IMG/VR virus record: IMGVR_UViG_644736365_000004
Origin: a virus
Lineage: Duplodnaviria > Heunggongvirae > Uroviricota > Caudoviricetes
Strand: one strand, 5' to 3'
Length of the DNA stretch: 30,979 bases
In this document: one piece after another, positions 2,239 to 12,537 of the stretch
Layout: every line of letters begins with the position of its first letter
Position numbering within the stretch: the first letter of the stretch is position 1
Notes under the pieces: generated by a model
What the model saw: only the letters and a program-made list of their open reading frames with translations
What the model was told of the DNA's origin: nothing
Databases searched by the model: none
Made by a program: the position numbers and the translations under genes

Positions 2239-2820
2239 TTATTTAATCGTCAGAACTACGCGGCCAATGATTTTTATGTCGTCGATGCCACAATCAAAAG
2301 CCATGCCCACGCCACTAACTCTTACTTTGCGTACTGGAATTCTTGTCAGTGTACGAATGCTAATTTTTCCTTCTACTTCAACCAGCCAATCGTCGTCATA
2401 AACTTCAGAGTAAGACTGGTCAACGATGTACTGTACAAGACCATCCAAAACGCATAACGGCTGTTGTGGTAGTGATTTACCTGGTAGGAAAGTGACTTTA
2501 TCAAGCATAAGAGTGCCTGAGTCGTAAAGCTGGCCATCAACGATCTTGCTGCGTGGAATTCTGAGAATGTCTAATTCTTCATCATTAAATTTTGGGCCGT
2601 GACCAGTAGCTAGCCATTCCAGGTTAGCGCCTGTTTCAGCAACACATTTAACGACGATATCAGCTGGGAAAACTCCACGTTTATAGCGTGATGATAGAGA
2701 ACTGGCAGCCATGTCCAGATGTTCTGCTAGCTGTAACTTCTGCGTAAATCCGTAAGCCTCGATCACCCGATCCAGAATCGGGGTGCTGTCAACGTTCAGG
2801 TCAATTTTGAATGTGCTCAT
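2239..2820 (-). CDS. CI-type prophage repressor (phage 186 cI-like by size and position)
   Basis: ORF immediately upstream of int on the same strand, divergent from the Apl/CII-like operon. ATG at 2818-2820 (MSTFKIDLN...) gives 193 aa; the track start at 2862 is GTG. Start choice is uncertain. Confidence 0.55.
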   Translation of the reverse strand: MSTFKIDLNVDSTPILDRVIEAYGFTQKLQLAEHLDMAASSLSSRYKRGVFPADIVVKCVAETGANLEWLATGHGPKFNDEELDILRIPRSKIVDGQLYDSGTLMLDKVTFLPGKSLPQQPLCVLDGLVQYIVDQSYSEVYDDDWLVEVEGKISIRTLTRIPVRKVRVSGVGMAFDCGIDDIKIIGRVVLTIK

Positions 2821-2834
2821 AACGAATCCATAAA

Positions 2835-2884
2835 TCTCGATTCGAGAAATTGTGATTGACACTTCTCGAAACGCGAATTAATCT
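2835..2884 (+). promoter_or_regulatory. lysis-lysogeny switch region: operator-like palindrome and rightward promoter
   Basis: Perfect 13-bp palindrome TCTCGATTCGAGA (2835-2847). TTGACA (2856-2861), 17-nt spacer, TAATCT (2879-2884). A TCTCGAA half-site repeats inside the spacer (2864-2870). Lies between the divergent repressor and Apl-like genes. Confidence 0.35.
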
Positions 2885-2955
2885 GGCTCCACATTTCGAA
2901 TGCAGCCTTATATAACCCTGTATTGCCGTACAGGTTAACTTGTGGAGTTTGCCTT

Positions 2956-3893: not shown

Positions 3894-3902
3894 GGGGGGG
3901 TT

Positions 3903-4331
3903 ATGGCAATTAGTCAGGAACAGCAACAGCGCGGACTGGAACAGCTTAAAAAGATTCGCCGCAAATACTTCAATACCAGTAGTGAGGCTGCTGACTGGTG
4001 GGACAAATTAACACCTGAATGGCGCGGGGTAGTTCTCCATGCCGCCGCTGTTAATTCTGGCTTGAGTGTATTCAAAGCCCACTTAAGCAAATGCTGCTGG
4101 CGGGAGCTGTTTGAGCGTCTGGATTACCGGGCAATGATTCAACTGCGTTGCGGCATTTCACGAGCGCGTCTGACGATGAACGGATTCGGGTCATTGCGTG
4201 ACAGTGATTTTTCTAAAAGTACCGTGAACCGTCCGATAAAGCGGGTTTATCCAATCAATAACAATCGGGGGCCGCAGATGATTATCGCGCCTCACATCGT
4301 CCATAAGTTGCAACAACAAGGGAATCTCTGA
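3903..4331 (+). CDS. hypothetical early protein
   Basis: 142-aa ORF from the ATG at 3903, preceded by a G-rich Shine-Dalgarno. Stop overlaps the next start (TGATG). Confidence 0.4.
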   Translation: MAISQEQQQRGLEQLKKIRRKYFNTSSEAADWWDKLTPEWRGVVLHAAAVNSGLSVFKAHLSKCCWRELFERLDYRAMIQLRCGISRARLTMNGFGSLRDSDFSKSTVNRPIKRVYPINNNRGPQMIIAPHIVHKLQQQGNL

Positions 4332-4732
4332 TGGCCATTATTTCCGTTGAAGGTAAATCGTTAGGGGCTGAATTGGCCGCGTGGGGAGTTCCTCACAATT
4401 ACGCTGTGGCTTTTGCTGAGAAAAGTACCAGTAAAAATGGCCGTATCGCTTTGCATCCTTTCTTCTTCAATGACACCGAACACATGACTAACCCGCGTCA
4501 TTGGCTGGCGATAAATGCCGCTTTCTGGTGCTGCGTGTACCGCGAGGCAGAGAGCAAAGAAGCGCAAATTGAAGCAATTGCCGGAATCCGCGCAATTTTC
4601 TATACGGCCGGGGCGTTGGGTGTTGGCGAGATTAAAGCACTGATCCAGGAGTGGTGGCGGACAACGTACGAGCTGCACCTTATTCCAGCACCGAATCATT
4701 CCGCAGTCACTGTACAACCCGCTTTTCACTAA
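4331..4732 (+). CDS. hypothetical early protein
   Basis: 133-aa ORF translationally coupled to the upstream ORF. No recognisable motif. Confidence 0.4.
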   Translation: MAIISVEGKSLGAELAAWGVPHNYAVAFAEKSTSKNGRIALHPFFFNDTEHMTNPRHWLAINAAFWCCVYREAESKEAQIEAIAGIRAIFYTAGALGVGEIKALIQEWWRTTYELHLIPAPNHSAVTVQPAFH

Positions 4733-4799
4733 TTAACAACCTGAATTTTTTGGCCACAGCTTAGGTGGCCGGGGATTCTTTTGCCTTAAGGAAATCAAA

Positions 4800-5033
4800 A
4801 TGCACATGACACGTCAGGATTTACCCGCAACAAAATCAGGCACTGACCTGCTGGCTATGCTCACCAAAGCCACGCAGGAAGGTAAAGCAGCTGCTGCTGA
4901 TCTGTGTTCCACCCGCCTGGATAAGCTGGCCACCCATGCCGTCAATGAAGGTTTAAGCGCAACAGAAATCGTTGAGTTAATCCGCGAAGAAGCCGCAGCG
5001 ATTTGCAGTAAAGGCGGTGCAGCATGGCAGTAA
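4800..5033 (+). CDS. hypothetical small Ala-rich protein
   Basis: 77-aa ORF with RBS AAGGAAA. Its stop overlaps the dam start (ATGGCAGTAA). Confidence 0.35.
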   Translation: MHMTRQDLPATKSGTDLLAMLTKATQEGKAAAADLCSTRLDKLATHAVNEGLSATEIVELIREEAAAICSKGGAAWQ

Positions 5034-6103: not shown

Positions 6104-8119
6104 ATGCTGGAGCCTGGCCAACACCATGCCGTCAATGCCTGGCGGCGTGAAACCTTTGCGCCTGGTACCCCGTCAGATGCGACGATCACCGAACGCCGCC
6201 TGTGGGCTGTTAACCCACAGGATTATGAATGGCGTTCCCAGTACCTGCATGAGATACCCGACTGGTTAGCCGGGTATTTCGGCAACCGTTACGAAAAGCT
6301 GCTGGCTGGTCGTGACGGGCGTCGCCGTGCCAATACATTCTTGCGCAAAACTATCGGCGAGAATGTATTGCCACGTCTGCGCAAAGTGGCTGCACGTTAC
6401 AAGCTGGCTGCTGATGCACTTGATCTTCCTTTCGGTAAGTCGCTGGAGCGACTGCCGTCACTTGACCGCCCGGACCTCAAAAAATTGGCTGGCCAGATAT
6501 CTGGCTGGATCTCACAGTCACTTTATGACTTCACCGATCAGTTTGTGGGCAGCACTGACGGTGCCGCAGAGCTGCGCCGCCGTACGCTGGAGTCTTACCG
6601 CCATTTATGCACGTGTTCCCTGATGCTGAACAATCAACCGCCGTACTGGGCAGAACATGAAGCTAATGGCGGACAACTGGAAACACGTAAGACTGAATCC
6701 GGGATTCTCCGCATGATGGCACCTGAATGGTGGTATCTGCGTCTTAAGCGGGCGCGGGATATGCAGCGTGAGCATATGGCCATTGCCGTGGGGCAGGTGC
6801 AAAAAGCAGCCAGTGCTTATGTGTCCCGTAAAACCCTGGGTGAATGGATAGACCAGAAAAAGCGGAACCTTGAGTTCTTTAAAAAGTTTGATCTGCTGAA
6901 TGATGAAGGGCTGCGTATTGCACTGGACAGCATGGTGCACCGCAGCGTTGCTAATCCGGCGATCCGTCGCTGTGAGCTAATGGTAAGAATGAGAGGATTT
7001 GAAGATATGGCCAATGAAGAAGGGCTGGCCGGTGAGTTTTACACCATCACCGCGCCATCGCGGTTCCATGCGGTACACAGCAAAGGGGGCTTTGTTTCAC
7101 AGTGGGATGGCTGCACCCCACAGGACACCCAGCGCTATTTATGTGGTGTATGGGCGAAAGCCCGCGCTGCTATTTCCCGTGCAGGTATCCATGTTTTTGG
7201 TTTTCGTGTGGTAGAGCCTCACCACGATGGGACACCGCACTGGCATATGCTGCTTTTTATGCGTCCTGGTGACGTGGATACCGTGCGCGATATTCTTTGC
7301 TATCACGCCAGAATTACCGACTCCGAAGAACTGCAAACGCCAAACGCGCTAAAGGCACGTTTTCATGTTGAAGCCATCGATCCCGCTAAAGGTTCGGCTA
7401 CGGGTTATATCGCCAAATACATATCCAAAAACATTGATGGATTTGCGCTGGATGGTGAGCAGGACGATGAAACAGGGGAAAGTCTGCGGGATATGGCCAA
7501 ATCCGTTTCTGCATGGGCTTCACGCTGGCGCATTCGCCAGTTTCAGCAGATTGGTGGTGCGCCGGTTACAGTCTGGCGTGAGCTGCGCCGGTTACGTGAT
7601 CAGGTACTGACTGACCGCAGAATGGATGCGGTTCTGGCTGCTGCGGATGTTGGGGACTGGGCGGCATATACCCAGGCACAGGGTGGCGCACTGGTTGCCC
7701 GCCGCGATCTGGTTGTTCGTCTGGCTTATGAAATCACTGAGCAGGGTAATGAATACGCAGAGGACGTGCAGCGCGTTCAGGGTGTCTATTCTCCATTGGT
7801 TCCAGATTCGGCGGTATGTACGCGCCTGGTGAAGTGGCAGAAGGTTGCGAAGTTGGCCGAAGCGCCAGCGGAGGCGGGTTTTTCTGGCGGCAACGCCGCC
7901 CCTTGGAGTTCTGTCAATAACTGTACGGAGGGTGGAACCCGCAGACGGTTAAAACTGGAATTGCGCAGCCGGGGTTTTGATGGTTCTGACGATGAAATAG
8001 CCATTCTCATGCGGGGCAGTGGTTTGAGATTTGGCCAGGTGGCATTGATTTACCGTAATGGCCGGTTGCAAGAGACACGAAGCGAGCCAACGCACGAGCT
8101 GTGGCCGGGGTGGTTGTAG
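6104..8119 (+). CDS. rolling-circle replication initiator (P2 gpA / 186 A family)
   Basis: About 671 aa from the ATG at 6104 (track start 6068 is TTG). Metal-binding HxH motif (PHWHMLLF) and tyrosine motif GYIAKYISKN are characteristic of gpA-type initiators. Size and position match. Confidence 0.8.
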   Translation: MLEPGQHHAVNAWRRETFAPGTPSDATITERRLWAVNPQDYEWRSQYLHEIPDWLAGYFGNRYEKLLAGRDGRRRANTFLRKTIGENVLPRLRKVAARYKLAADALDLPFGKSLERLPSLDRPDLKKLAGQISGWISQSLYDFTDQFVGSTDGAAELRRRTLESYRHLCTCSLMLNNQPPYWAEHEANGGQLETRKTESGILRMMAPEWWYLRLKRARDMQREHMAIAVGQVQKAASAYVSRKTLGEWIDQKKRNLEFFKKFDLLNDEGLRIALDSMVHRSVANPAIRRCELMVRMRGFEDMANEEGLAGEFYTITAPSRFHAVHSKGGFVSQWDGCTPQDTQRYLCGVWAKARAAISRAGIHVFGFRVVEPHHDGTPHWHMLLFMRPGDVDTVRDILCYHARITDSEELQTPNALKARFHVEAIDPAKGSATGYIAKYISKNIDGFALDGEQDDETGESLRDMAKSVSAWASRWRIRQFQQIGGAPVTVWRELRRLRDQVLTDRRMDAVLAAADVGDWAAYTQAQGGALVARRDLVVRLAYEITEQGNEYAEDVQRVQGVYSPLVPDSAVCTRLVKWQKVAKLAEAPAEAGFSGGNAAPWSSVNNCTEGGTRRRLKLELRSRGFDGSDDEIAILMRGSGLRFGQVALIYRNGRLQETRSEPTHELWPGWL

Positions 8120-8196
8120 CAGTATAAATCTGTGTAACACGTTCATTTGTCAGTAGATGGCAGGAAAATACATTTCACAATTTGTGCTTTACGGTG

Positions 8197-8216
8197 TACT
8201 GTATGTATATACAGTT
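8197..8216 (+). promoter_or_regulatory. LexA (SOS) box
   Basis: TACTGTATGTATATACAGTT fits the CTGT-N8-ACAG consensus, 23 bp upstream of the 8239 ORF. Confidence 0.6.
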
Positions 8217-8238: not shown

Positions 8239-8445
8239 ATGGATCTTTTGGAAGCGTCGGCACAGCTGGAGCGCATTGAGTTATTGGCCAAAATTGCCCA
8301 TGTGTACGAAAGTAACCAGAGAGAAAAAACAATCGCTTTGGCCTGGATTGGTGAGATTGCTGGAGAAATGCGGGAGATGGTCAGAACAGAAGCTAAAAAC
8401 CCCCAGGAAGGGGGCTTATCAGGCGGCGGGAGTCGCTTTCAGTAG
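8239..8445 (+). CDS. putative SOS-inducible antirepressor (Tum-like)
   Basis: 68-aa ORF with G-rich RBS, directly downstream of the LexA box. Position after the replication gene matches tum of phage 186. No direct sequence recognition. Confidence 0.4.
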   Translation: MDLLEASAQLERIELLAKIAHVYESNQREKTIALAWIGEIAGEMREMVRTEAKNPQEGGLSGGGSRFQ

Positions 8446-8688
8446 GTCTAATGCCATTTGGCGCTGATCGGGTGAAAGTGCATTCAGTATTTTCTGCACC
8501 ATCGCATCACCCGTTTTCGCGCTGGGGCTGAGAGTGTGGGAGAACGTCAGATTCATCACAAACGTATGGCCACACTCCACATCTGAACAGGCGCAGTAAA
8601 TATCCGCAATCTGCCGGTGCTTCCGGTTTGTTTTACGAATAACAGCCTTTGAGCCGCATTCCGGGCATTCGATTTTCAGAACTCGCAT
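8419..8688 (-). CDS. Ogr/Delta-family zinc-finger late transcription activator
   Basis: 89 aa from the ATG at 8686-8688 (MRVLKIECPECG...). Cys spacing C-x2-C-x22-C-x4-C matches Ogr/Delta. The track ORF extends to 8742 but those upstream codons overlap the portal stop. Confidence 0.6.
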   Translation of the reverse strand: MRVLKIECPECGSKAVIRKTNRKHRQIADIYCACSDVECGHTFVMNLTFSHTLSPSAKTGDAMVQKILNALSPDQRQMALDLLKATPAA

Positions 8689-8738
8689 ATTCCATGCTCC
8701 AGCTGTTAAATGATGCCTGGATTTTAGCCTTTTTCGCC

Positions 8739-9800
8739 TCATGCCGCATCCTTATCCGTTGATTCTGTGTAACTTAAATCAAAGTTAAGGTGCAGACGTT
8801 CCGGTATTTCGGGATCGTTGTTAACAGCGGTCATAAACCGGCGCTGAATGGGCGCTATCTCACTTTTCTTGTAAATCCTTTCCGCCTTTTCAACATCCCC
8901 CAGACCGGCAGTGTTCTGCGGGACAATTCCTGCCAGCCCAGCGGGAAAGCGGTGCGCGTTGAGAATGTCCTGCGCACTGATGTTTTTGATGTTGGCAAAT
9001 TCATCTTTTGCGGAGATATCCCCCATTTCAATGAACTTGATCGCATCCCCATCCCCGCCAGGAATGTTCACCAGAATGGTGGAGAAGTTGCCGATACCTT
9101 TGCTGTCACGCAGCTGCTGTTCAATTTCTTCTTCCATTTCATCCGTCATGCTGGGATCGCGTGTATAGAGAATGCCGCCAGTATGAGCGCCGTTGTGGTA
9201 GTAGCGGCGGCGGAAAATCACGGCTTCACTGTTAAGCAATGCCGAGTGTACGCCACCGATATAGTCTGGCAGCCCGTAGATATGCTGCTGCGGGTCGTAC
9301 ATCTTGATAAAAATGATATCTTCCTGCGGCCATACCTGCGGTTCACCGTCCTGTAACACCACATAATCGCCGGGCTGGTCTGTGGCGTTGTCCCTGACTT
9401 TACGGCGGCGAATATACAGGCCGGGTAAAGGTTCCAGGGCAATTACATCCCCCCATCCGTTGCGGATTTTGCCAATCGCAATATCCCCGAAGGTTGTATA
9501 GTCAAACGCTGCGGCTTCCAACTGGTCGTAAGTCAGGCCACCGCCCAGGTAATCAGACACAATCATATTTTTCCGGGCGTGGATGATGCCGCCATGCTGA
9601 CCATTCAGATTGATAAGCTGTGCCAGTGCCAGCCGGTCAATCGGCTGGGTAAAGTGATCGGCGGCATTGTCGTACCAGATGTCGCGGTAATCCGTGCCGG
9701 TGGTCAGGACAGGTTCCGGTTTGCCGAATGTGATGATGCTCATTTTTTTGGACTTATCGCCGCGCGGGTTGCGCTTAACGAAGCGGTTTTTTTTACTCAT
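8739..9800 (-). CDS. portal protein (P2 gpQ-like)
   Basis: 353-aa ORF immediately downstream of and overlapping the terminase large subunit. Size and synteny match the P2 Q-P leftward operon. Confidence 0.8.
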   Translation of the reverse strand: MSKKNRFVKRNPRGDKSKKMSIITFGKPEPVLTTGTDYRDIWYDNAADHFTQPIDRLALAQLINLNGQHGGIIHARKNMIVSDYLGGGLTYDQLEAAAFDYTTFGDIAIGKIRNGWGDVIALEPLPGLYIRRRKVRDNATDQPGDYVVLQDGEPQVWPQEDIIFIKMYDPQQHIYGLPDYIGGVHSALLNSEAVIFRRRYYHNGAHTGGILYTRDPSMTDEMEEEIEQQLRDSKGIGNFSTILVNIPGGDGDAIKFIEMGDISAKDEFANIKNISAQDILNAHRFPAGLAGIVPQNTAGLGDVEKAERIYKKSEIAPIQRRFMTAVNNDPEIPERLHLNFDLSYTESTDKDAA

Positions 9801-11572
9801 GCAGCCTCTTTCCTTACACCCCAGCGGGATTTCGGTTTGTTTTCGTAGTTGAGTGGTTCGTTATGCAGGGCGTGGGTAATTGCCCAGAACGCCTCCGCGT
9901 GGCCAGTGTCCTGGCTGCGGTCAGCGACAAATGTCATGGCGTTACCGCTTTGCGTGGTGGTGCGGCGTACAGCCATAAAGCTGGCCGGGATCTCTTTAAG
10001 GTTCTTGTCCCATTCAATACGCTGACTTTCCACCACGTCCGCCGCTTTCAGTACCAGCTGATTTTTTGTGTTCATGTCGTAACGAATGGCGACGGCCACG
10101 CGCATGGCAAAATGCTGGATGTTGTCAAAAACACCCTGGCCAATACCGGTAACGTCCACTCCCAGATAGGTGAAGTTGTATTTTTTAAACAGGAGTTCGA
10201 TCTGCCTGGCCTGATAGCGGAAGTTCATGCCCTTCCAGTTAATGACCTTCAGAACGCGGAATTTCTCTGCGGCATACATCGGCGGGGCAATAATCACAAA
10301 ACACGACAAATCGCCGCTGCGTGCCGGGTCAAAGCCTCCCCATACTGGCCTGTCACCAAATGGCCGCGCAGCGTCCGGGTTGTGATCCTGCCAGGTGTCC
10401 ACCTCCACACCGCAGGCTTCCAGATCTGAAAAGCTGAATACAGAATCCTTGCTGTCCACGAACACGCACATATAGAGCATGTTGAAGGTGGCAGTGTTGT
10501 AGCGGTTGCGCAGCTTCTCGATGTTGGCCAGGTTGAAGCCGCCCGCAATGGCATCCTCCATCGTGATGACATAGCGCCACTGACCGTCCGGGCAAAGCCG
10601 TCCGCCGTTGCGCATTTCATCAAAGGACGGGAACCGGGCGGCCGCGCGTTTTTTGCTGCCCTGTTTCCATTCCTCACCCGTCCAGAACGGGTAAGCCTGG
10701 TGTGTTTTGGCCGATGGTGTTGAAAAGTAGGTGGTGCGCCATTTGTCATGGGTGGCCATTGCGCTGGCCACTTCGTTAAGCCTGGCGAAGTTAGGCACCC
10801 AGAAATATTCGTCACAGTACAGGTGGCCACTGTAGGACTGTGCCGTGTTTTTGTTGGTTGAGAGAAAACGCAGTTCAGCGCCATTGCTGAGGCGGATCGG
10901 GTTGCCGGTCAGCGTGATGCCAAAATACTGCTCTGCAATGTTGACGATGTAAGACCGGAAGTATTCCGCCTGGACTTTGGAGGCTGACAGGAAGATTTGC
11001 GGATCGCCTGTCATGACCGCGTTTTCAAAGGCTTCAAATGCAAAGTACCAGGTGGCACCGATCTGGCGGCTTTTAAGGATGTTCCTGACCTGCTGGCCAA
11101 TATTCCTGCGCAGGTGTTTCTGGTATTCAAAAAGATGTTCATCCGCCCAGGTGTCAAAATCCGCCTGAGTCAGAGAAGAAATATCGTTTTTCCTGTTTTT
11201 GCGTTTGGGGCGCGGTTCATCGCTGTTACTGTCCCGCTCAGCTGCCTGACCGTTACTCTGGCCGCTGGCCATCTTTTCTTTATGCTTATTGCTTTGAGCA
11301 CGCAGCTTTGTGGCGTGGGCAATCAGCATGTCCATTTCTTTCAGGTCGAGATCGGTTTTATTATCGCGGCTGGCCAGCAGCTGGTAGCGGCGTTCGATTG
11401 CCTCCTCTGTACTTTCAAAACTGAGTAAATCAGCCCAGCTGTATTTCTCAGCCCAGTAGTAAACGATCCGCGCATTCGGCAGATTTAATTCTGATGCAAT
11501 TTCTTTTGGCGTATAGCGGCGCAAATAAAGTGCGCGGACAACGCCTTTTAGTTCTTCTGAGTATTTAGCCAT
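9797..11572 (-). CDS. terminase large (ATPase) subunit (P2 gpP-like)
   Basis: 591-aa ORF divergent from the scaffold gene. Contains LKSRQIGATWYFA, a motif I recall from P2-type terminases. Length matches gpP. Confidence 0.85.
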   Translation of the reverse strand: MAKYSEELKGVVRALYLRRYTPKEIASELNLPNARIVYYWAEKYSWADLLSFESTEEAIERRYQLLASRDNKTDLDLKEMDMLIAHATKLRAQSNKHKEKMASGQSNGQAAERDSNSDEPRPKRKNRKNDISSLTQADFDTWADEHLFEYQKHLRRNIGQQVRNILKSRQIGATWYFAFEAFENAVMTGDPQIFLSASKVQAEYFRSYIVNIAEQYFGITLTGNPIRLSNGAELRFLSTNKNTAQSYSGHLYCDEYFWVPNFARLNEVASAMATHDKWRTTYFSTPSAKTHQAYPFWTGEEWKQGSKKRAAARFPSFDEMRNGGRLCPDGQWRYVITMEDAIAGGFNLANIEKLRNRYNTATFNMLYMCVFVDSKDSVFSFSDLEACGVEVDTWQDHNPDAARPFGDRPVWGGFDPARSGDLSCFVIIAPPMYAAEKFRVLKVINWKGMNFRYQARQIELLFKKYNFTYLGVDVTGIGQGVFDNIQHFAMRVAVAIRYDMNTKNQLVLKAADVVESQRIEWDKNLKEIPASFMAVRRTTTQSGNAMTFVADRSQDTGHAEAFWAITHALHNEPLNYENKPKSRWGVRKEAA

Positions 11573-11627
11573 GCGGATAATTATGCCGTGGCTGTTATGA
11601 AAAAACGGTGGTGTTAATTCGCGTCTG

Positions 11628-11650
11628 TTCGGTAATACGTGATAACCGAA
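11628..11650. promoter_or_regulatory. dyad symmetry element in the divergent late promoter region
   Basis: TTCGGTAA-N7-TAACCGAA (7 of 8 arm positions complementary), flanked by CTGTTC direct repeats (11625-11630 and 11651-11656), in the 161-bp region between the terminase and scaffold starts. Confidence 0.3.
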
Positions 11651-11733
11651 CTGTTCAGAATAAAGCGTGATGCGGTGGTGGTTTTATTTGGCAATAATTG
11701 ATTTGCAGCGTCGGTGAATAAATCAGGGGGGAT

Positions 11734-12537
11734 ATGTCGCATTTAAAAACTGACTGGCTGTGTGTTGCTACCGAAGGGGATACCGTTGACGGCAGGGATA
11801 TTAAACGCCAGTGGATTATCGATATGGGGGAAACCTATGACTATAACCACTATGTCGCTTTAATCTGGCCAGAACACGAGGATGATTGCGGTAATTTTGG
11901 GGAGGTACTGGAAGCCACCTGGCATGATGGTGAGGACGGACTGGCGCGGCTTTACGTCAGCCTTTGCCCGAATATGCGATTAATATTCGCCAACCATGAA
12001 GATCAGCTCCTGTTCTTCTCGATTGAACCGGAAGAAAACTGGCGCGGTAGTGGGCGTACATACCTCAAGGGGCTGGCGGTTACAGATACTCCCGCCAGTG
12101 TTGGCACCACACGGCTGCGCTTTAGTAGTCGGCGCAAAAAATTATCTAAGCAGGGATATTACAGTTGTGTGATTTCCCGTGATGGAAAAATTAAACAGGA
12201 AATACGAATGAAGAACTGGCAAAAATTGTTTGGTATTAAACCGAAGTTTGAAGATGAAACGCCGCCTGATGATACCGCGCAGGGTGATGATAAGTTACAG
12301 GCGCTGGCCAACGCGGTAAACGAACTGGAAGGCCGTGTAGCCAAAATTGAAAATCAGCTCAATGATGTTCAGGGTGATGTGGATACCATTGCGGAAGTGG
12401 TCGATACCGAAGAATTTGCGGTTATTCGTGATAATGCAAAAGATATCGTTAAACGTTTTAACGATCTGGGTAATAAATCCACCCGTACACCAGGGCGCAA
12501 GATTTCAGAAAAAGCGGGTAAATTTAATTTCCTGTAA
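11734..12537 (+). CDS. capsid scaffolding protein (P2 gpO-like)
   Basis: 267-aa ORF. Motifs VATEGDTVDGR and LKGLAVTDTPASVGT match the conserved gpO signatures (EGDTCDGR, LVGLAVTDDPASLGT) as I recall them. Confidence 0.8.
   Translation: MSHLKTDWLCVATEGDTVDGRDIKRQWIIDMGETYDYNHYVALIWPEHEDDCGNFGEVLEATWHDGEDGLARLYVSLCPNMRLIFANHEDQLLFFSIEPEENWRGSGRTYLKGLAVTDTPASVGTTRLRFSSRRKKLSKQGYYSCVISRDGKIKQEIRMKNWQKLFGIKPKFEDETPPDDTAQGDDKLQALANAVNELEGRVAKIENQLNDVQGDVDTIAEVVDTEEFAVIRDNAKDIVKRFNDLGNKSTRTPGRKISEKAGKFNFL

What the first reader, a model, noticed from the sequence alone, without database searches (positions are those of the whole stretch)
8419..8688. Ogr/Delta-type zinc-finger gene sits after the portal gene and overlaps the Tum-like gene tail-to-tail
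In P2 and 186 the late activator lies at the other end of the genome, next to att. Here a gene with the C-x2-C-x22-C-x4-C spacing is the last gene of the leftward terminase-portal operon. Its 3' end overlaps the 3' end of the convergent LexA-controlled ORF by 27 bp (8419-8445), which could couple SOS induction to late activator expression through transcriptional interference. It also occupies the A-to-portal interval where P2 carries exclusion genes.
Basis: partly seen in the sequence, partly recalled or inferred. Interest (0 to 1): 0.4.

Follow-up and report, generated by a model that had tools for sequence, protein, structure and literature searches.

The report
Phage late-gene activator in its usual place
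This is the Ogr/Delta-family zinc-finger gene that most likely switches on the late genes of an ESSI-2-like P2-family prophage; its place after the portal gene and its 27-base overlap with a DNA-damage-controlled neighbour are real, but both are normal for this branch of the family and the gene is already annotated in databases.

Summary
On the minus strand, 8419-8688 encodes an 89-aa protein with C-x2-C-x22-C-x4-C. It matches Pfam Ogr_Delta at 70.8 bits (cut-off 26.3) and is the only such finger in the window. It follows the portal gene and overlaps a convergent 68-aa ORF by 27 bp. That ORF has a perfect LexA box and is homologous to the N-terminus of 186 Tum.

The arrangement is not unusual. 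The window is an ESSI-2-like (Quadragintavirus) prophage with a 186-type early region and an HP1/K139-type late region. The Ogr-like gene lies directly after the portal gene in all six Peduoviridae genera examined and in 80 of 80 related viral contigs. The literature already notes this position for K139. RefSeq annotates the gene as "ogr/Delta-like zinc finger family protein".

The overlap looks like compaction. The gene's conserved terminator hairpin (8395-8414) lies inside the Tum-like ORF, which reads on to the first antisense stop. Relatives with cargo inserted at this junction lack the overlap.

No TGT-N12-ACA late-promoter site exists. A conserved dyad at 11627-11651 is the likely target. 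SOS coupling through transcriptional interference is untested and unsupported. Interest is low.

The parts
8419..8688 (-). Ogr/Delta-family zinc-finger gene, 89 aa: the presumed late-gene activator. It has an N-terminal C4 zinc ribbon (residues 1-50) and a subfamily-specific C-terminal part (residues 51-89, predicted as two helices at low confidence).
   Evidence: Pfam PF04606 E 9e-20; PHROG 603 transcriptional regulator E 2e-40; 100% identical to gene products of the ESSI2_ev phages; strong third-position bias in variation; hhalign to Ogr, B and Delta over the finger only; AlphaFold secondary structure, mean pLDDT 54.
8689..8738 (-). Portal-to-activator spacer. It holds the Shine-Dalgarno GGAG (8700-8697) and an invariant block GGYTAAAATCCAGGCA, whose -10-like TAAAAT lies at 8726-8721. 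This is a possible weak promoter of the gene's own, with a poor -35.
   Evidence: In an alignment of 42 distinct upstream sequences the block is invariant, and it is also present in YenM324. The consensus scan finds no sigma-70 promoter here. Promoter function is inferred, not shown.
8395..8414 (-). Intrinsic terminator of the leftward terminase-portal-activator unit. The stem is CCCCC/GGGGG (8400-8404 with 8410-8414) and the T-run is 8399-8395. It lies 4 nt after the activator's stop codon and inside the Tum-like ORF.
   Evidence: Terminator scan. A hairpin plus T-tract is present in nearly all of 60 distinct downstream sequences, including a different stem (GCCACC/GGTGGC) in L070 and L071.
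8239..8445 (+). Convergent 68-aa ORF, a probable SOS-induced antirepressor. It is homologous to residues 5-43 of 186 Tum and lacks the rest of the 146-aa Tum protein. Its last ~16 residues are encoded by the terminator hairpin and by the antisense of the activator's 3' end.
   Evidence: PHROG 698 E 2.8e-24; BLASTP to Tum E 8e-6; hhalign probability 94%, E 1.4e-7; family alignment; highly variable tail.
8419..8445 (.). The 27-bp tail-to-tail overlap. The two reading frames are codon-for-codon antisense: the activator's Leu-Leu-Lys is the Tum-like Phe-Gln-stop.
   Evidence: Sequence. Present in at least 58 of 78 loci. An antisense stop at this position occurs in 59 of 60 alleles, and the Leu codon is always YTA.
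8182..8216 (+). Predicted SOS promoter of the Tum-like gene: TTGTGC (8182-8187), 18-nt spacer, TATATA (8206-8211). It is overlapped by the LexA box TACTGTATGTATATACAGTT (8197-8216).
   Evidence: Exact CTGT-N8-ACAG. A box at the same place occurs in most related loci and in YenM324. The layout matches 186 p95 with its LexA site. The hexamers were read by eye.
8739..11572 (-). Portal gene (8739-9800) and large terminase gene (9797-11572): the late operon that ends with the activator gene.
   Evidence: Pfam Phage_portal and Terminase_6N/6C/5. Same order in 80 of 80 loci.
11627..11651 (.). Dyad GTTCGGTAAT-N5-ATAACCGAAC in the middle of the divergent terminase/scaffold promoter region. It is the candidate binding site of the activator.
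   Evidence: Unique in the window at 0 mismatches. The left arm TTCGGWTA is invariant in 52 distinct relatives. Related dyads lie at the same place in ESSI2_ev040, YenM324, K139 and HP1. P2 and 186 have one activator site at the same position. Binding is inferred.
2239..2862 (-). 186-type CI repressor (context): the presumed target of the Tum-like protein.
   Evidence: Pfam Phage_CI_repr plus Phage_CI_C; 47% identity to 186 CI.

Best explanation
The gene at 8419-8688 is the late-gene transcriptional activator of an ESSI-2-like (Quadragintavirus) Peduoviridae prophage. It belongs to the Ogr/Delta/B zinc-finger family, in the HP1/K139 subfamily, and it sits where that branch of the family normally keeps it, directly after the portal gene.

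Shown:
- Family membership at the domain level.
- It is the only such gene in the window.
- Strong purifying selection.
- Conserved position across six genera.
- A conserved terminator just after it.

Inferred:
- The protein binds the dyad at 11627-11651 between the divergent terminase and scaffold genes and activates both late promoters, as Ogr and B do from one site at the same position in P2 and 186.
- The gene is first expressed weakly, perhaps from the conserved TAAAAT element in the 50-bp spacer. It is then co-transcribed with the terminase and portal genes, giving positive feedback. P2 ogr and 186 B likewise end a late operon and share its terminator.
- Transcription ends at the hairpin at 8395-8414.
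- The convergent LexA-controlled ORF is a short Tum-type antirepressor acting on the 186-type CI.
- The 27-bp overlap is a compaction by-product. The Tum-like ORF reads through the activator's terminator and into the antisense of its 3' end until the first stop codon.
For: - Family: Pfam Ogr_Delta 70.8 bits against a 26.3-bit cut-off; PHROG 603; hhalign to P2 Ogr, 186 B and P4 Delta with all four Cys aligned; the only such finger in the window.
- Real gene: 47 variable third positions against 9 first and 1 second in codons 1-50.
- Position is conserved: ESSI2_ev040, K139 orf13 (annotated 'zinc-finger protein'), HP1, YenM324, phiO18P and Pseudomonas phi3; 80 of 80 IMG/VR loci; the published remark on K139 and Smhb1 (PMC8537503).
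- Already annotated: RefSeq calls it 'ogr/Delta-like zinc finger family protein' in 28 E. coli genomes and many Enterobacterales.
- Operon end: no terminator between the portal gene and this gene, and a conserved one after it. P2 and 186 annotations show ogr and B sharing the terminator of a late operon. No consensus sigma-70 promoter anywhere in 8400-11800.
- Target site: the dyad is conserved at the divergent late promoters from enterobacterial relatives to K139 and HP1.
- Neighbour: Tum N-terminal homology; 186-type CI; LexA box conserved across the lineage.
- Overlap: the Tum-like tail is hypervariable, and the overlap is lost where cargo is inserted.
Against: - No member of the HP1/K139 subfamily has been shown experimentally to activate late promoters, as far as I could find.
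- Identity to Ogr and B is only 19% and is confined to about 40 residues.
- The classical TGT-N12-ACA element is absent from the late promoter regions, so the target site is a guess from conservation.
- Only one full dyad exists for about 20 kb of late genes. It is not evident in phiO18P or Pseudomonas phi3.
- No convincing promoter for first expression was found.
- The invariant YTA Leu codon, which keeps the antisense stop, hints that the exact end of the Tum-like ORF is under selection. The overlap may therefore not be wholly neutral.
Confidence: 0.82

Rival explanations
1. The convergent, overlapping layout is a regulatory device. SOS-induced transcription from the Tum-like promoter runs antisense through the activator gene, because no rightward terminator stops it. 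It delays or tunes activator expression by polymerase collision or antisense RNA. Later, strong late transcription shuts off the antirepressor.
For: - The hairpin at 8400-8414 carries a T-run only on the minus strand, so it should not stop rightward transcripts.
- The only plus-strand terminator-like site inside the activator gene (8613-8627) is weak, and its stem is broken in ESSI2_ev040.
- A convergent pair made of an SOS-boxed small gene and the Ogr-like gene recurs in this lineage, in YenM324 and in K139.
- The antisense stop codon is maintained in 59 of 60 alleles.
Against: - There are no expression data.
- Several relatives carry 1.0-1.3 kb of cargo, or an AbiC-like gene, between the two genes and so lack the direct overlap.
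- The overlapping protein tails are the least conserved parts of both proteins.
- Convergent gene ends that share a terminator region are common in compact phage genomes (general knowledge).
Confidence: 0.12
2. The gene is an independent transcription unit with its own, possibly regulated, promoter in the 50-bp spacer. It is not functionally part of the terminase-portal operon.
For: - The block GGYTAAAATCCAGGCA is invariant at all codon positions of the putative N-terminal extension frame, which points to a DNA or RNA signal.
- The block is also present in YenM324.
- The K139 record annotates a putative promoter P13 before orf13.
- HP1 has a perfect TATAAT upstream of its copy.
- P2 ogr and 186 B each have their own promoter.
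Against: - The -35 region is poor and the scan reports no promoter.
- There is no terminator after the portal gene, unlike tQ in P2 and tW in 186, so read-through from the late promoter is expected in any case.
- This rival is compatible with the main explanation rather than exclusive of it.
Confidence: 0.4
3. The protein is a zinc-ribbon regulator with a different job, for example control of lysogeny or of a host gene, and late genes are controlled by something else.
For: - Only about 40 residues align with Ogr and B.
- The C-terminal 40 residues are subfamily-specific.
- There is no TGT-N12-ACA.
- No experimental work on this subfamily was found.
Against: - It is the only Ogr-type gene in a complete-looking prophage.
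- Its link to the late packaging operon is strictly conserved.
- A subfamily-matched dyad sits exactly where P2 and 186 have their activator site.
- The late region has no consensus sigma-70 promoters, so an activator is needed.
Confidence: 0.06

Closest known systems
ESSI2_ev040 gp26 (YP_009877508.1) and its counterparts in ESSI2_ev015, ESSI2_ev129 and Cronobacter phage ESSI-2 (Quadragintavirus and relatives)
   Same: The protein is 100% identical in the ESSI2_ev015 and ESSI2_ev129 records listed and 94% in ESSI-2. Gene order is the same: terminase, portal, zinc finger, convergent small ORF, gpA. ESSI2_ev040 has the same 27-bp overlap (10410-10436 of L001), LexA box and terminator hairpin.
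   Different: The convergent Tum-like gene is a divergent allele, about 44% identical, and is annotated there as an 86-aa hypothetical protein.
Vibrio phage K139 orf13 ('zinc-finger protein')
   Same: 55% identity over the full length, including the C-terminal extension. It lies downstream of the portal gene and is convergent with a small LexA-boxed gene (orf12). A related dyad, TTCGGATAT-N6-ATATCCGAA, lies at the divergent terminase/scaffold promoters.
   Different: An extra small ORF (orf14) lies between the portal gene and orf13. The gene ends abut without overlapping. A CTGT-N8-ACAG box lies at orf13's own putative promoter. orf12 is not detectably homologous to the Tum-like family.
P2 Ogr and 186 B
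   Same: They share the C-x2-C-x22-C-x4-C zinc finger, and both match the subfamily profile by hhalign (E 2e-5 and 7e-5). Each is the last gene of a late operon and shares its terminator. Each phage has a single activator site between the divergent terminase and scaffold promoters.
   Different: Identity is 19%. Ogr and B are 72 aa with unrelated C-termini. They lie after tail gene D, next to att. They are associated with TGT-N12-ACA-type sites, which are absent here (motif as cited in PMC3931495).
P4 Delta
   Same: The subfamily finger aligns to Delta residues 80-125 (hhalign E 8e-5).
   Different: Delta is a 166-aa protein encoded by a satellite phage.
186 Tum (for the neighbouring ORF)
   Same: LexA-controlled, located after gene A, and found in a phage with a 186-type CI. 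Residues 4-42 align with Tum residues 5-43.
   Different: The ORF is 68 aa against 146 aa for Tum and lacks everything beyond the N-terminal segment. In 186, orf97 and cos separate tum from the portal gene.

Membership tests
Ogr/Delta/B late activators (Pfam PF04606) | Four cysteines spaced C-x2-C-x22-C-x4-C | tested here: met
   Cys8, Cys11, Cys34 and Cys39. They align with the Cys of Ogr, B and Delta.
Ogr/Delta/B late activators (Pfam PF04606) | Profile match above the curated threshold over the whole domain | tested here: met
   70.8 bits against a 26.3-bit gathering score, model positions 1-47 of 47.
Ogr/Delta/B late activators (Pfam PF04606) | Small protein encoded in a P2-family (Peduoviridae) genome, one copy per phage | tested here: met
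   89 aa; Quadragintavirus-type prophage; single copy.
Ogr/Delta/B late activators (Pfam PF04606) | Late promoters carry a dyad (TGT-N12-ACA in P2 and 186) near -55 that the protein binds | tested here: not met
   The three TGT-N12-ACA matches in the window all lie outside late promoter regions, and the count is below chance. A different conserved dyad occupies the equivalent position at 11627-11651. This bears on site specificity, not on domain membership.
Ogr/Delta/B late activators (Pfam PF04606) | Activates late transcription; binds zinc; contacts the RNA polymerase alpha subunit | not testable with these tools
   Needs genetics and biochemistry. The residue aligned with Ogr Tyr42 (the ogr52 site, from my own knowledge) is Asn46 here, which is not informative.
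HP1/K139-type Ogr subfamily (PHROG 603) | Full-length similarity including the C-terminal extension, and a position directly after the portal gene | tested here: met
   PHROG 603 E 2e-40. 55% identity to K139 orf13 and 37% to the HP1 fragment. Synteny in six genera.
186 Tum antirepressor (neighbouring ORF 8239-8445) | LexA box overlapping the promoter | tested here: met
   TACTGTATGTATATACAGTT at 8197-8216, conserved in relatives.
186 Tum antirepressor (neighbouring ORF 8239-8445) | Sequence homology to Tum over its length | tested here: inconclusive
   Only Tum residues 5-43 align (hhalign 94%, E 1.4e-7). The remaining ~100 residues of Tum have no counterpart.
186 Tum antirepressor (neighbouring ORF 8239-8445) | A cognate 186-type CI repressor without a self-cleaving domain | tested here: met
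   Pfam Phage_CI_repr plus Phage_CI_C, with no S24 peptidase hit; 47% identity to 186 CI.
186 Tum antirepressor (neighbouring ORF 8239-8445) | Binds CI and relieves repression | not testable with these tools
   Needs a binding or induction assay.

The most novel reading that the evidence does not exclude
The conserved junction is a convergent-transcription timer. It consists of an SOS promoter, a short Tum-type ORF that reads through a one-way terminator, and the late activator gene on the opposite strand. The timer would tie how long and how strongly the SOS signal lasts to when the late activator can accumulate, and would let late transcription switch the antirepressor off. A lesser novelty is also open: the HP1/K139-type activators may recognise a different dyad (TTCGGWTAT-N5-6-ATAWCCGAA) from the classical TGT-N12-ACA.
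Probability: 0.12. Interest if true: 0.4.

Novelty: already known. Interest (0 to 1): 0.15.

Why it matters
It matters little beyond correct annotation. The finding shows that this prophage is a mosaic. It has a 186-type immunity and SOS module (CI, CII, a short Tum) and an HP1/K139-type late module whose activator gene sits after the portal gene. Two small points could interest P2-family specialists. The candidate operator for this activator subfamily differs from the classical one. The SOS-controlled gene ends inside the activator's terminator and coding tail. Neither point changes how these phages are understood unless experiments show that the convergent layout has a regulatory effect.

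Tried and rejected
- TGT-N12-ACA search: 3 hits, none at late promoters, and fewer than chance.
- Half-site TTCGGWTA: 3 hits against 1.35 expected, not significant; no second full dyad.
- Strict dyad pattern across the fetched loci: it matched K139 only, because the right arm varies.
- CI control of the activator, as at 186 pB: the CI/apl promoter region and the activator's upstream region share no operator-like words.
- The 107-aa form starting at 8742, which overlaps the portal stop (ATGA): the frame stays open in relatives, but variable sites fall 4/7/8 by codon position, so there is no coding signature. The 8688 start with its invariant GGAG is kept; the long form is not excluded.
- Plus-strand terminator at 8613-8627: weak, within the chance expectation, and its stem is broken in ESSI2_ev040.
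- K139 orf12 as a Tum-like homologue: hhalign probability 5%.
- Solved structures: no sequence match at E up to 1.
- AlphaFold with a shallow 30-sequence alignment: mean pLDDT 54, too poor for a fold search, so none was run.
- The K139 genome paper (PMID 12426348, PMC135448) is not held. What its authors said about orf13 and late promoters is known only from the GenBank record and from citing papers.

Full report
**What is at the coordinates.** The minus strand of 8419-8688 carries an 89-aa ORF that begins MRVLKIECPECGSK. Its cysteines at positions 8, 11, 34 and 39 give the spacing C-x2-C-x22-C-x4-C. It matches Pfam Ogr_Delta (PF04606) over the whole 47-position model, at E 9e-20 and 70.8 bits against a 26.3-bit cut-off. 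It also matches PHROG 603, "transcriptional regulator", at E 2e-40. A six-frame scan finds no second Ogr-type finger in the 31-kb window.

Across 60 distinct alleles from related loci, codons 1-50 have 47 variable third positions against 9 first and 1 second. This is a translated gene under strong purifying selection.

Databases often call a 107-aa form that starts at 8742 and overlaps the portal stop codon. I prefer the 8688 start for two reasons. A GGAG 8 nt upstream is invariant while its flanks vary. The 18-codon extension shows no third-position bias, with 4, 7 and 8 variable sites by codon position.

**Surroundings.** Directly upstream on the same strand lie the portal gene (8739-9800) and the large terminase gene (9797-11572). 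The scaffold gene diverges from 11734. Replication gene A ends at 8119.

Between A and the zinc-finger gene lies a 68-aa plus-strand ORF, 8239-8445. A perfect LexA box, TACTGTATGTATATACAGTT (8197-8216), overlaps a plausible promoter made of TTGTGC, an 18-nt spacer and TATATA.

The small protein belongs to PHROG 698, of unknown function (E 2.8e-24). It aligns with residues 5-43 of 186 Tum by BLASTP (E 8e-6). A 14-sequence family profile gives hhalign probability 94% and E 1.4e-7. It lacks the rest of the 146-aa Tum protein.

The window's repressor (2239-2862) is a 186-type CI. It matches Pfam Phage_CI_repr plus Phage_CI_C and is 47% identical to 186 CI, with no hit to a self-cleaving peptidase domain. 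A CP76-type CII follows. "Tum-like" is therefore reasonable for the N-terminal module and for the regulatory setting, but the protein is not a full-length Tum.

**What the element is.** The window is a prophage of the ESSI-2 group (Peduoviridae, Quadragintavirus). The region matches Escherichia phages ESSI2_ev040, ev015 and ev129 at 95-96% and Salmonella phage S.Kent 1-2-1 at 88%. The annotated ESSI2_ev040 map is collinear with the window. The zinc-finger protein is 100% identical to the product encoded in the ESSI2_ev015 and ESSI2_ev129 records, where it is annotated "transcriptional regulator" or "putative phage gene". It is 99% identical to a RefSeq "ogr/Delta-like zinc finger family protein" of Citrobacter. 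PGAP gives the same name in 28 complete E. coli genomes.

**Is the position unusual?** Compared with P2 and 186 it is. Their ogr and B genes follow tail gene D, next to att. Within the family it is not. The Ogr-like gene lies directly after the portal gene, on the same strand, in six genera:
- Quadragintavirus
- Tresduoquattuorvirus YenM324
- Longwoodvirus K139, where orf13 is annotated "zinc-finger protein"
- Hpunavirus HP1, where the gene is unannotated
- Bielevirus phiO18P
- Phitrevirus phi3

All 80 related IMG/VR loci have the order terminase, portal, zinc finger, and nearly all continue with a convergent Tum-like ORF and gpA. A 2021 paper states that the K139 ogr homologue lies between the portal and replication genes, as does that of Smhb1 (PMC8537503). 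HP1-like phages also differ from P2 in having cos next to attP rather than after the portal gene (PMC2771037). The A-to-portal stretch is therefore continuous in this architecture. In Burkholderia phi52237 the homologue sits in the early region instead, which shows that the gene's location varies across the family.

**Relationship to Ogr, B and Delta.** Pairwise identity to P2 Ogr and to 186 B is 19%, against 55% to K139 orf13. A 30-sequence subfamily profile aligns residues 6-45 with Ogr residues 2-41 (E 2e-5), with B residues 2-41 (E 7e-5), and residues 1-46 with Delta residues 80-125 (E 8e-5). All four Cys are in register. Homology covers the finger only. The C-terminal 40 residues are specific to the HP1/K139 subfamily. 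AlphaFold predicts two helices there, but at low confidence (mean pLDDT 54), so I ran no fold search. No solved structure matches by sequence.

**How it probably works.**
- *Need for an activator.* No consensus sigma-70 promoter occurs anywhere in 8400-11800 on either strand, against 2.8 expected. This fits activator-dependent late promoters.
- *Candidate target site.* The classical TGT-N12-ACA element is absent from late promoter regions. Instead a 25-bp dyad, GTTCGGTAAT-N5-ATAACCGAAC (11627-11651), lies midway between the terminase and scaffold genes and is unique in the window. Its left arm, TTCGGWTA, is invariant in 52 distinct relatives. Related dyads occupy the same place in ESSI2_ev040, YenM324, K139 (TTCGGATAT-N6-ATATCCGAA) and HP1. 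P2 and 186 each have one activator site at this position serving both divergent promoters. I infer that this dyad is the subfamily's operator. That is conservation evidence, not proof, and the dyad is not evident in phiO18P or Pseudomonas phi3.
- *Operon structure.* No terminator separates the portal gene from the zinc-finger gene. P2 and 186 have tQ and tW right after their portal genes. A hairpin with a T-run lies 4 nt after the zinc-finger stop codon (8395-8414, minus strand). It is kept in nearly all of 60 distinct downstream sequences, once with a different stem. This gives positive feedback. The same logic holds in P2 and 186, where ogr and B end the tail operon and share its terminator.
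- *First expression.* How the gene is first expressed is unclear. The 50-bp spacer holds an invariant GGYTAAAATCCAGGCA block with a -10-like TAAAAT but a poor -35. No CI-operator-like sequence is shared with the immunity region.

**The overlap.** The terminator hairpin lies inside the Tum-like ORF and encodes its conserved K-N-P-x-x-G-G. The ORF then continues as the antisense of the activator's last codons. The two frames are codon-for-codon antisense, so the activator's Leu-Leu-Lys reads as Phe-Gln-stop.

The Tum-like tail is hypervariable (SGGGSRFQ, SHSRRGFQ, SRGGCGFQ and others). The activator's tail is mildly variable (ATPAA, AAPAV and others). Relatives with a DUF2806 gene or an AbiC-like gene inserted at the junction have no such overlap. 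The simplest reading is compaction at a convergent junction.

Two points keep a regulatory reading alive. First, the hairpin has a T-run on the minus strand only, so SOS-driven rightward transcripts are not obviously stopped before they run antisense through the activator gene. Second, the activator's Leu codon is always YTA, which keeps the antisense stop in 59 of 60 alleles, although about 95% of third positions in codons 1-80 vary. I put the interference model at about 0.12.

**Verdict.** The identity as an Ogr/Delta-type gene is confirmed. The position and the overlap are lineage-typical and already annotated, and the proposed SOS coupling is unsupported. The finding is already known and of low interest.

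Noticed in passing
L002 (K139) 3938-3953 and 4526-4541; L088 (phiO18P) 4431-4446; L003 (HP1) about 3895-3930: K139 has CTGT-N8-ACAG boxes at both convergent promoters. One overlaps the putative promoter of its Ogr-like orf13 and one lies at orf12. phiO18P has a near-identical box (CTGTATAAAAACACAG) about 58 nt upstream of its Ogr-like gene. HP1 has a degenerate copy followed by a perfect TATAAT. The late activator itself may therefore be under LexA control, or under another operator, in these phages. The window has no such box upstream of its own gene.
   Followed up: partly
L003 (HP1, U24159) 3927-4219: The Ogr-like gene of HP1 is unannotated and split between two reading frames. The C-x2-C lies in ORF 3927-4097 and the remainder in ORF 3992-4219. 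This is either a frameshift in strain HP1c1 or an error in the 1996 sequence.
   Followed up: no
L060 6432-7466; L078 5868-6659 and L079 6261-7052; L038 6554-7774: In relatives the activator/Tum-like junction and the stretch before gene A are cargo slots. They hold a DUF2806 gene, a putative AbiC-like abortive-infection gene convergent with the activator (4-bp overlap), and an IS-type element whose 406-aa ORF I read as an ISL3-family transposase without a family scan. This echoes the tin/old slot of P2.
   Followed up: partly
L087 (Yersinia phage vB_YenM_324) about 4790-5000: A LexA box (4982-4997) lies in the unannotated stretch between the zinc-finger gene and gpA. It may mark a missed small convergent gene like the Tum-like ORF here. 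I did not call an ORF there.
   Followed up: partly
window 2918-2933: A second exact CTGT-N8-ACAG (CTGTATTGCCGTACAG) lies in the divergent promoter region between the 186-type CI gene and the first rightward gene (ATG at 2957). It could be a LexA site or a phage operator.
   Followed up: no
window 11573-11733 and the aligned loci: Besides the dyad, two -10-like blocks are almost invariant in relatives and lie nearly symmetrically, about 54 nt from the dyad centre. They are GGCATAAT, just before the terminase ATG, and GCAATAAT on the scaffold side. If GGCATAAT is the -10, the terminase mRNA would have almost no leader.
   Followed up: partly
window 8419-8688 compared with 8739-9800 across L007-L086: The activator protein is 85-100% identical across the 80 loci, while the adjacent portal protein is 71-100% and the Tum-like protein 34-100%. 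The regulator is thus more conserved than the structural gene next to it, and the Tum-like gene occurs as at least two divergent allele types.
   Followed up: partly
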